Of a stretch of 64,000 nt of DNA, positions 1 to 1,073 are shown piece after piece. The notes beneath the pieces were generated by a model. The model was given only the letters and a program-made list of their open reading frames with translations, was not told the DNA's origin and did not search any database. The stretch is taken from NCBI RefSeq assembly GCF_036507355.1, contig NZ_AP027878.1; one strand, given 5' to 3'. The stretch is from Escherichia coli (lineage in GTDB: Bacteria; Pseudomonadota; Gammaproteobacteria; Enterobacterales; Enterobacteriaceae). The position numbers were made by a program, and so were the translations under genes. Numbering within the stretch: position 1 is the first letter of the stretch; every line of letters starts with the position of its first letter.

Positions 1-438
1 ACCATAACGTTTAACACTACGAGAGCTAATAGCTCGTAGTGAGGAAGGCACCTTATGACCGGGTTCGTCCGTTTTAACTATTCCCCCGTCACCGTATGTA
101 GCTAGTATTCCTGGATTTACGCCTTCCCGTGCACTTCCTGCGGCGAGTCCGTTCCCTGTCCATAATTCCATATAGTGTGCATGGTCCAAAATTGTGTGTG
201 GCTGCCAATTAAGCAAAGCGCGGCCAGCATCCACCCCGCGCCCATCATCCCAGCCACGGATAAACTCACCGCGTAAATCAGGTAATTTTAACGTTGGGTA
301 AACCTTTGCCAGATTTGGGTACTTTTCAGAAGAAAATGCTGCACCATTGCATTTCAGCCACCCCGTTGGCGGTGTGGCTGAGGGCCATGGAATAGGTACA
401 CCAACGGGCAGCGCCGAGCCTTCCCCTAAACCAACGTT
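1..438 (-). CDS. Tail-fibre variable segment (Sv'-like), partial; silent orientation of the invertible C-segment, C-terminus beyond window edge
   Basis: Minus-strand frame open from the cix site to position 1 encodes ...KLPDLRGEFIRGWDDGRGVDAGRALLNWQPHTILDHAHYMELW..., a conserved tail-fibre motif; an in-frame stop sits at the cix crossover so the segment has no start of its own. Confidence 0.6.
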
Positions 439-446
439 TTAGTCTT
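421..446. other. cix-like recombination site for Cin (12+2+12 architecture)
   Basis: TTCCCCTAAACC-AA-CGTTTTAGTCTT resembles gix/hix sites (AAACC NN GGTTT core) and lies 55 bp upstream of cin, abutting the tail-fibre segment. Confidence 0.5.
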
Positions 447-500
447 AATCCCTACCTATACCAACGATGTATTTTTAACTAAACAAAGAGGTTGTTTTTC

Positions 501-1073
501 ATGCAAATTGGCTACATTCGTGTGTCAACAAATGACCAAAACACAGATTTACAAAGAAATGCACTGAACTGCGCAGGATGTGAACTGATTTTTGAAGATA
601 AAATAAGCGGAACAAAGTCAGCCAGACCAGGCTTGAAAAAGCTGCTCAGAACGTTATCAGAAGGAGATACGCTGGTTGTCTGGAAGCTGGATAGGCTTGG
701 CAGAAGTATGAAACACCTTATCACGCTTATAGAGGAGTTGCGGGAAAAAGGTGTTAATTTCCGTAGTCTGACAGACAGTATTGACACATCAACACCCATG
801 GGGCGTTTCTTTTTTCATGTCATGGGTGCTTTAGCAGAAATGGAACGTGAATTAATTGTTGAGAGAACACTGGCCGGACTGGCAGCTGCACGCGAACAGG
901 GACGCATTGGCGGACGTCGCCCGAAGTTGACAAAAGAACAACATGAGCAAATAGCGAGGTTGATCGAAAATGGCTACAGCAGGAAACAGTTGGCAATTAT
1001 TTACGATATCGGTGTATCGACGATTTATCGTTATCATCCTGTAGAGAAGCGCCAAACTCAATCTGAGCTGTAA
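501..1073 (+). CDS. cin: Serine recombinase, DNA invertase Cin
   Basis: 190 aa from ATG 501 (AAGAGG RBS 10 nt upstream); MQIGYIRVSTNDQ...DRLGRS...GRIGGRRPKL is the Hin/Gin/Cin resolvase-invertase signature; track ORF begins at TTG 492. Confidence 0.9.
   Translation: MQIGYIRVSTNDQNTDLQRNALNCAGCELIFEDKISGTKSARPGLKKLLRTLSEGDTLVVWKLDRLGRSMKHLITLIEELREKGVNFRSLTDSIDTSTPMGRFFFHVMGALAEMERELIVERTLAGLAAAREQGRIGGRRPKLTKEQHEQIARLIENGYSRKQLAIIYDIGVSTIYRYHPVEKRQTQSEL

What the first reader, a model, noticed from the sequence alone, without database searches (positions are those of the whole stretch)
1..1073. Window begins inside the invertible tail-fibre segment, at the Cin crossover site
The silent tail-fibre variable segment abuts a cix-like site with its in-frame stop exactly at the crossover, followed by cin. 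Host-range switching by inversion is therefore encoded at this edge, with the remainder of the C-segment outside the window.
Basis: partly seen in the sequence, partly recalled or inferred. Interest (0 to 1): 0.25.

Follow-up and report, generated by a model that had tools for sequence, protein, structure and literature searches.

The report
Min-type tail-fibre inversion switch, window edge
The window starts inside a silent tail-fibre tip cassette of a P1-like phage-plasmid, next to a DNA-invertase crossover site and an intact invertase gene; this is the long-known multi-cassette "Min" host-range switch of plasmid p15B rather than the two-state Cin switch of phage P1, so it is ordinary.

Summary
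Window 1-438 (minus strand) is an open tail-fibre C-terminal cassette that runs off the left edge. Bases 421-446 form a 26-bp invertase crossover site with an in-frame TAA in its outer half. Bases 501-1073 encode an intact serine DNA invertase.

The invertase is not cin: it is 74% identical to Cin in protein and 67% in DNA, and its 5' end, not its 3' end, faces the site. The real cin survives as a truncated pseudogene at 1205-1381 on the opposite strand. Identities and coordinates match what the P1 GenBank record notes for the plasmid p15B Min region.

The window holds one site and one cassette. A 99.9%-identical contig with the same junction carries nine sites and nine cassettes in the 5 kb to the left. 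Two of those sites are inverted relative to the window's site. Simulated inversion at the core TT fuses each of its seven silent cassettes in frame to the constant tail-fibre part.

Across 34 near-identical plasmids the window's cassette lies in either orientation and at many distances from the invertase gene. In one it is the expressed tail-fibre tip.

This is a known system, of low novelty.

The parts
1..438 (-). Silent tail-fibre C-terminal (receptor-binding tip) cassette. It has 146 of about 168 codons; the last 24 codons and the stop lie left of the window.
   Evidence: Open frame. Collar domain. PHROG tail-fibre families and T4 gp37/gp12 tips. The full cassette is seen in L007 8926-9429 and L010 6720-7205.
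421..446 (.). 26-bp crossover site (cix/mix type), invertase-proximal. Inner half 421-432, core AA 433-434, outer half 435-446.
   Evidence: Sequence. Same core and inner half as eight other sites in L010. 10 of 12 identity of the inner half to P1 cixL/cixR.
439..441 (-). In-frame TAA two codons upstream of the first cassette codon after the core. It lies in the fixed outer half-site, so it precedes whichever cassette is parked here.
   Evidence: Translation. Site table.
501..1073 (+). Intact serine DNA invertase gene (190 aa), Min type, transcribed away from the invertible region. Shine-Dalgarno AGAGG at 487-491.
   Evidence: RefSeq WP_001165547.1 sits at the same position in relatives.
519..590 (+). 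Interval equivalent to the P1-annotated recombinational enhancer (cin nt 19-90). Two Fis-consensus-like 15-mers at 523-537 and 571-585, centres 48 bp apart.
   Evidence: P1 annotation. 58 of 72 identity. The motif pair is at identical gene positions in P1 cin.
1205..1381 (-). Truncated cin pseudogene (codons 1-59, TAG at codon 9). It marks replacement of cin by the Min-type gene.
   Evidence: 89% identity to P1 31570-31836. Translation with stops.
1382..1470 (-). Homologue of the P1 cin promoter region, upstream of the pseudogene.

Best explanation
The window comes from a P1-like (Punavirus) phage-plasmid. It opens inside the multi-cassette tail-fibre inversion region of the p15B Min type.

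Proposed mechanism. The 190-aa serine invertase (501-1073) binds 26-bp sites that all share the core TT and the inner half GGTTT(A/G)GGGGAA. With the host protein Fis bound to an enhancer in the 5' part of its own gene, it exchanges strands at the 2-bp core between any two sites in inverted orientation. One site lies in the tail-fibre gene S at the junction of its constant part. The others each precede a promoter-less cassette of about 140-170 codons.

Each inversion that uses the S site replaces the C-terminal receptor-binding tip, in frame, with another cassette. Other inversions reshuffle the stock of cassettes.

The window's cassette currently sits in the last silent slot, next to the invertase gene, behind a fixed TAA.

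Shown here: the anatomy, in-frame compatibility, the same cassette silent or expressed in different isolates, and collinearity with p15B.

Inferred from knowledge of the Hin/Gin/Cin family: Fis dependence, strand exchange at the core, inversion in the source strain, and an effect on host range.
For: Backbone. Window 1545-26000 is 98.7% and 50000-64000 is 99.2% identical to P1.

Invertase. It is intact and exactly equals UniRef Q05517_ECOLX, seen on at least 1000 contigs. It has Resolvase and HTH_7 domains and is close to the solved Gin structure.

Match to p15B.
- Window 525-595 versus P1 31684-31754 gives 59 of 71 identities (83%, no gaps). The P1 record notes the same figure for p15B 6463..6533.
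- The cin remnant is 89% identical with one gap. The P1 record notes the same for p15B 7147..7408.
- Both comparisons give an offset of about 5,940 between window and p15B coordinates.
- PMC6906374 reports a reverse-oriented invertase in a P1-like plasmid that is 98.5% identical to Min of p15B.

Left extension by proxy. L010 is 2997/3000 identical to the window with the same junction. It has nine sites in 5 kb (0.03 expected), all with core TT and a conserved inner half.

Frame. Simulated inversion of the S site with each of the seven silent sites gives an uninterrupted fusion ending in RPRN(I/V)AFNYIVRA(A/D)*.

Shuffling in nature. In 34 plasmids with a 99.5% or more identical invertase block, the window's cassette (99% or more identical) lies on the same strand in 23, with gaps of 232 to 5647 nt. 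It lies on the opposite strand in 11. In pYZMc17-1_100k it is the C-terminus of the full-length tail fibre. There the cassette-specific variants run from the first diagnostic position, about 35 nt past the core, onward.

Enhancer. Fis-like motifs 48 bp apart lie at the same gene positions as in the P1-annotated enhancer.
Against: - The window has only one site and one cassette, and the source record could not be found. The partner sites of this particular replicon are therefore inferred from relatives.
- No sigma-70-like promoter was detected upstream of the invertase gene.
- The outer half of the window's site (AAGACTAAAACG) is a poor half-site.
- The p15B sequence X62121 and the original Min papers were not available. 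Identity with Min rests on notes in the P1 record and on one later paper.
- No experiment or read-level data show inversion in this strain.
Confidence: 0.88

Rival explanations
1. P1-type Cin/C-segment switch: one invertase (Cin), two cix sites, and a single 4.2-kb segment that alternates Sv-U and Sv'-U'.
For: The backbone is 98-99% P1. The site resembles cixL/cixR in its inner half and core. The invertase is a Cin homologue.
Against: - 74% protein and 67% DNA identity to Cin, against 98.7% identity in the flanking backbone.
- The gene has the opposite orientation relative to the site.
- cin is present only as a truncated pseudogene.
- The cassette is about 168 codons, not the roughly 520 codons of P1 Sv'.
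- All close relatives have 5 to about 11 sites.
Confidence: 0.03
2. A relic in this replicon. The invertase gene and one site persist, but the switch no longer operates, for example because partner sites or the S gene were lost, or because the invertase is not expressed.
For: Only one site is in the window. No promoter-like site was found before the gene. PMC6906374 describes P1-like plasmids with a degenerate switch. Some relatives have decayed sites and a truncated U gene (L007).
Against: The invertase ORF is intact and identical to the widespread form. The cassette frame is open over all 146 codons present. The site is identical to the functional-looking one in L010. The closest relatives keep full arrays. 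Even among the 22 contigs with an identical 995-aa DdrB, the cassette next to the invertase differs.
Confidence: 0.06
3. The permutations seen among relatives arise from RecA-dependent homologous recombination between the roughly 230-bp conserved cassette heads (83-90% identical, in direct and inverted copies), not from the invertase.
For: Long inverted and direct repeats exist. The number of cassettes varies among plasmids, and L009 carries the window's cassette twice. Inversion alone cannot produce either.
Against: In the one expressed copy examined, cassette-specific variants run from the first diagnostic position, about 35 nt past the core, onward. The constant part runs up to the core. 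All nine sites keep an identical core and inner half. An intact invertase gene always accompanies the array.
Confidence: 0.03

Closest known systems
Min multiple-inversion system of E. coli 15T- plasmid p15B (Sandmeier, Iida, Arber 1990 and 1992; Iida 1990; X62121)
   Same: - The invertase gene reads away from the invertible region.
- A truncated cin remnant, then lydC-lydA, follow downstream.
- Identities to P1 and coordinate offsets match the p15B notes in the P1 record.
- Many crossover sites separate short 3' tail-fibre cassettes.
   Different: From memory, p15B has six sites in 3.5 kb; the original papers could not be read. The closest relatives of the window have 9 to about 11 sites in about 5 kb. 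Direct alignment with X62121 was not possible.
Cin / C-segment of phage P1
   Same: Same phage backbone and same genomic position, between lydC and S. Same recombinase family. Same core dinucleotide and a similar inner half-site. The enhancer lies in the 5' part of the gene.
   Different: 74% protein identity. Opposite gene orientation. Two sites and two long Sv-U units in P1, against many short cassettes and a single U here. cin is a pseudogene here.
Gin / G-segment of phage Mu
   Same: Closest solved structure (E 4e-92). Tail-fibre tip switching. From memory, gin also reads away from the G segment with its 5' end next to the site.
   Different: Gin has two sites and two states, in a different phage backbone.
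R64 shufflon (Rci)
   Same: Many sites, overlapping invertible segments, and a constant 5' part fused to alternative 3' cassettes of an adhesin (the pilV tip).
   Different: Rci is a tyrosine recombinase with unrelated sites. This is an analogy, not homology (PMC5903667 and PMC11850598 mention both).

Membership tests
Hin/Gin/Cin/Pin/Min (Din) serine DNA-invertase systems | Small serine recombinase with an N-terminal catalytic domain (catalytic Ser at about residue 9-10) and a C-terminal HTH | tested here: met
   Resolvase PF00239 (2e-51) and HTH_7 PF02796 (3e-15). Full-length alignment to Gin 4m6f, with the YxRVSTxxQ motif conserved.
Hin/Gin/Cin/Pin/Min (Din) serine DNA-invertase systems | 26-bp crossover site: two imperfect inverted 12-bp halves around a 2-bp core | tested here: met
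   421-446 reads TTCCCCTAAACC AA CGTTTTAGTCTT. The inner half is good and the outer half is weak. Nine sites in L010 share the same core and inner half.
Hin/Gin/Cin/Pin/Min (Din) serine DNA-invertase systems | At least two sites in inverted orientation on the same molecule | tested here: inconclusive
   The 64-kb window has only one site. The 99.9%-identical proxy L010 has two inverted and six direct partners.
Hin/Gin/Cin/Pin/Min (Din) serine DNA-invertase systems | Fis-dependent recombinational enhancer with two Fis sites 48 bp apart | tested here: inconclusive
   Two Fis-consensus-like 15-mers are centred at gene nt 30 and 78, the same positions as in P1 cin and inside its annotated enhancer. 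Fis binding and dependence cannot be tested here.
P1 Cin / C-segment | The invertase is Cin (near-identical, like the rest of the backbone) | tested here: not met
   138/186 aa (74%) and 373/558 nt (67%), against 98.7% for the flanking backbone.
P1 Cin / C-segment | cin is transcribed towards the segment, with its 3' end overlapping cixL | tested here: not met
   In P1, cin is at 31660-32220 and cixL at 32215-32234. Here the ATG at 501 lies 54 nt from the site and the gene reads away from it.
P1 Cin / C-segment | Two sites bounding one 4.2-kb segment with Sv-U and Sv'-U' | tested here: not met
   Not testable in the window itself. Not met in any close relative examined: 5 to about 11 sites, cassettes of 136-167 aa, and one U gene.
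p15B Min | min gene followed by a truncated cin remnant and lydC-lydA, collinear with X62121 | tested here: met
   This is indirect. The identities (83% without gaps; 89% with one gap) and an offset of about 5,940 in both comparisons reproduce the p15B notes in the P1 record.
p15B Min | Multiple (six or more) crossover sites forming overlapping invertible segments | tested here: met
   Met in relatives only: nine sites in L010 and ten cassettes in L009. Not visible in the window.
p15B Min | Direct sequence identity of the invertase and sites with X62121 | not testable with these tools
   X62121 is not in the collections and the original papers are not held. PMC6906374 reports 98.5% aa identity to Min for a reverse-oriented invertase in a P1-like plasmid.

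The most novel reading that the evidence does not exclude
The Min-type region of present-day P1-like plasmids of clinical and animal E. coli, Klebsiella and Salmonella may be an expanded tail-fibre shufflon. It has 9 to about 11 cassettes and only one chaperone gene (U), tied to a single cassette. That is larger than the six-site p15B prototype. It has not been systematically described as a host-range generator for these resistance-carrying phage-plasmids. Most short cassettes would then fold without a dedicated U protein.
Probability: 0.2. Interest if true: 0.4.

Novelty: already known. Interest (0 to 1): 0.15.

Why it matters
The finding itself is textbook biology: a phage changes its receptor-binding tail-fibre tip by site-specific inversion.

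The corrected reading has two practical uses.
- Annotation of P1-like phage-plasmids should name this gene a Min-type invertase and record the cin pseudogene. The string of short "phage tail protein" CDSs should be treated as silent cassettes of one tail-fibre gene.
- The region is a predictable break point and source of isomer heterogeneity in assemblies. It also bears on predicting the host range of resistance-carrying P1-like plasmids.

Tried and rejected
Looking for the source record, to extend the window leftward.
- An exact 60-mer scan of IMG/VR gave four contigs, all shorter than 37 kb.
- Megablast against phages, plasmids and E. coli genomes gave 98-100% relatives but no identical record with the same junction.
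- Exact-protein look-ups with DarA and DdrB gave a 99.9% proxy (L010, 3 mismatches in 3000 nt) but not the source.

Reading the primary p15B Min papers and the P1 genome paper: they are not held. X62121 is not in the collections.

A consensus promoter scan upstream of the invertase found nothing between 447 and 500. It is not informative either way.

L001 (NZ_OP378608.1), the best megablast hit, is riddled with frameshifts, so it was dropped as a reference.

Rejected ideas.
- That the TTG at 492 starts the invertase gene. RefSeq relatives and the Shine-Dalgarno spacing favour the ATG at 501.
- That the window start is a contig end. It lies 24 nt before the conserved 3' cassette repeat, so no conclusion is possible.

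Most fetched loci were not available to the Python sandbox, so L010 was pasted in by hand.

Full report
**What is at 1-1073.** On the minus strand, the frame of window:1-444 is open from base 438 down to base 1 and off the edge. The 146 codons read NVGLGEGSALPVGVPIPWPSATPPTGWLKCNGAAF... They carry a phage tail Collar domain (PF07484, E 4.6e-15). They match PHROG tail-fibre families end to end (best 7e-72). They also match solved tail-fibre tips such as T4 gp37.

The frame starts within a 26-mer at 421-446, TTCCCCTAAACC AA CGTTTTAGTCTT. This has the half-site, 2-bp core, half-site layout of Hin/Gin/Cin-family sites. An in-frame TAA sits at 441-439 in the outer half, starting 5 nt beyond the core.

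Fifty-four bases further on, an ATG at 501 follows an AGAGG at 487-491. It opens an intact 190-aa serine invertase gene that ends at 1073. The protein has Resolvase and HTH_7 domains and aligns over its full length to the solved Gin structure (E 4e-92). The stop is inside the site rather than exactly on the crossover.

**Which invertase it is.** The rest of the window is P1 backbone. Bases 1545-26000 are 98.7% identical to P1 31499-5831, and 50000-64000 are 99.2% identical to P1 76631-62632. The invertase stands out against this. It is only 138/186 (74%) identical to Cin in protein and 373/558 (67%) in DNA, and megablast finds no P1 match over 500-1073.

In P1, cin (31660-32220) is transcribed towards the C-segment and its 3' end overlaps cixL at 32215-32234. 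Here the 5' end faces the site and the gene reads away from it.

The real cin is still present as a remnant on the opposite strand. Window 1205-1470 is 89% identical to P1 31570-31836. That stretch covers the cin promoter region and codons 1-59, with a TAG at codon 9.

The P1 GenBank record notes that p15B nt 7147..7408 is 89% identical, with one gap, to this same P1 stretch. It also notes that p15B 6463..6533 is 83% identical, with no gaps, to P1 31684-31754. The window reproduces both figures: 89.1%, and 59/71 with no gaps. Both comparisons give an offset of about 5,940 between window and p15B coordinates.

A 2019 survey of P1-like plasmids also reports a reverse-oriented invertase 98.5% identical to Min of p15B (PMC6906374). 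The exact protein equals UniRef Q05517_ECOLX and occurs on at least 1000 contigs. I therefore read the gene as Min type, not cin. X62121 itself could not be fetched.

**What lies to the left.** The window has only this one site and one cassette, and I could not find the source record. The best proxy is L010, a 94-kb contig of GCA_014080785.1. It has the same cassette in the same position and 2997/3000 identity to window 1-3000.

Reading left from the invertase gene, L010 holds:
- seven cassettes on the minus strand;
- a single tail-fibre-assembly gene (U);
- one plus-strand cassette;
- the full-length S gene, then R and gp16.

Nine sites lie in these 5 kb, against 0.03 expected by chance. Written in the reading direction of the tail-fibre gene, all have the core TT and the inner half GGTTT(A/G)GGGGAA. 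The outer half varies:
- TTCTTGATTACC in S;
- GGCAT(A/G)AAAACG or CACATAAAAACG after a cassette stop codon;
- AAGACTAAAACG next to the invertase gene.

Other relatives show 5 to about 11 sites and up to ten cassettes.

**Does the anatomy work?** I simulated inversion in L010 between the S-gene site and each of the seven silent sites, cutting within the core. Every product is an uninterrupted fusion of the constant part (...SVLDYL) to a different tip, ending in RPRN(I/V)AFNYIVRA(A/D)*. For the window's cassette the fusion adds 168 codons, of which the window holds 146. The last 24 codons and the stop lie beyond base 1.

The TAA at 439-441 belongs to the fixed flank. Whichever cassette is parked next to the invertase gene is therefore preceded by a stop.

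The 5' part of the gene is 58/72 identical to the P1-annotated enhancer interval. It carries two Fis-consensus-like 15-mers at 523-537 and 571-585. Their centres are 48 bp apart, at the same gene positions as in cin. The cin remnant keeps only one of the two.

**Evidence that it shuffles in nature.** I searched the cassette-specific part (1-214) and the invertase block (447-1500) separately against PLSDB plasmids. Thirty-four plasmids appear in both lists with the two blocks within 6 kb of each other.
- In 23 the cassette is on the same strand as in the window. The gaps are 232 nt (the window's arrangement, 2 records), about 670-750 (8), about 1020-1220 (7), about 1630-1710 (3), and 2547, 3061 and 5647.
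- In 11 it is on the opposite strand, 2.2-4.5 kb away.

In pYZMc17-1_100k the cassette is the C-terminus of the 618-aa tail-fibre protein. There the constant part runs up to the core, and the cassette's diagnostic variants run from the first such position, about 35 nt past the core, onward. That fits exchange at the site better than exchange scattered through the roughly 230-bp conserved cassette heads.

Only 22 contigs share the window's exact 995-aa DdrB. Even among these the invertase-proximal cassette differs.

**Rivals.**
- A two-site P1 Cin switch is excluded for the gene and its orientation, and it is unsupported by any relative.
- A dead relic in this particular replicon cannot be excluded, because the partner sites are out of view and no promoter was detected. 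However, the gene, the site and the cassette frame are all intact.
- Homologous recombination between cassette heads probably contributes to gain, loss and duplication of cassettes. L009 carries the window's cassette twice, in opposite orientations. It does not explain the junction examined, which is consistent with exchange at the core.

**Verdict.** The feature is real and correctly located. The mechanism class is right, but the family assignment should change from Cin/C-segment to the Min multiple-inversion system of p15B, known since 1990. Novelty is low. The only mildly new aspect lies outside the window: present-day P1-like plasmids carry larger cassette arrays than I recall for the p15B prototype.

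Noticed in passing
window 1205-1470 (-): Truncated cin pseudogene (codons 1-59, TAG at codon 9 at 1357-1355) with its promoter-region homologue. It is 89% identical to P1 31570-31836. Its enhancer copy keeps only one of the two Fis-like motifs.
   Followed up: yes
window 1194-1212: Perfect 8-bp hairpin, CCCTAGTC-cga-GACTAGGG, exactly at the junction where homology to cin stops. One arm is cin-derived and the other is not.
   Followed up: no
window 1509-8488 and 55623-57283: P1 backbone genes follow in reverse P1 map order: lydC, lydA, lydB, hdf, darA, ddrA and ddrB, at 98.7% identity. Three tRNA genes, Met(cat), Thr and Asn, lie at 55623-57283 on the minus strand.
   Followed up: partly
L010 2822-3891; L008 7368-8437: Relatives have only one tail-fibre-assembly (U) gene in the invertible region. 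It always lies directly after the same 152-aa cassette and flips with it. The other cassettes have no U of their own.
   Followed up: partly
L009 1860-2345 (+) and 3939-4424 (-): NZ_CP063505.1 carries the window's cassette twice, in opposite orientations. Inversion alone cannot produce this, so duplication or inter-copy recombination is implied.
   Followed up: no
L013-L019, L021, L022, L028 (contig ends): Many draft-assembly contigs of about 88-94 kb begin at the invertase-proximal crossover site or within one cassette of it. Assemblies break in this repeat or isomer region.
   Followed up: partly
L007 6871-7462: NZ_CP122494.1 has a decayed site (GCATAAAAATGCG TT GGTTTAGGAACT), cassette debris and an N-terminally truncated U gene after the expressed cassette. 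This shows local erosion of the array.
   Followed up: no
window 244-437: The conserved cassette head is 85.6% identical to tail-fibre genes of P2-like Klebsiella prophages. It is about 75% identical, together with the invertase gene, to P2-like E. coli prophages. This suggests cassette exchange between phage groups.
   Followed up: no
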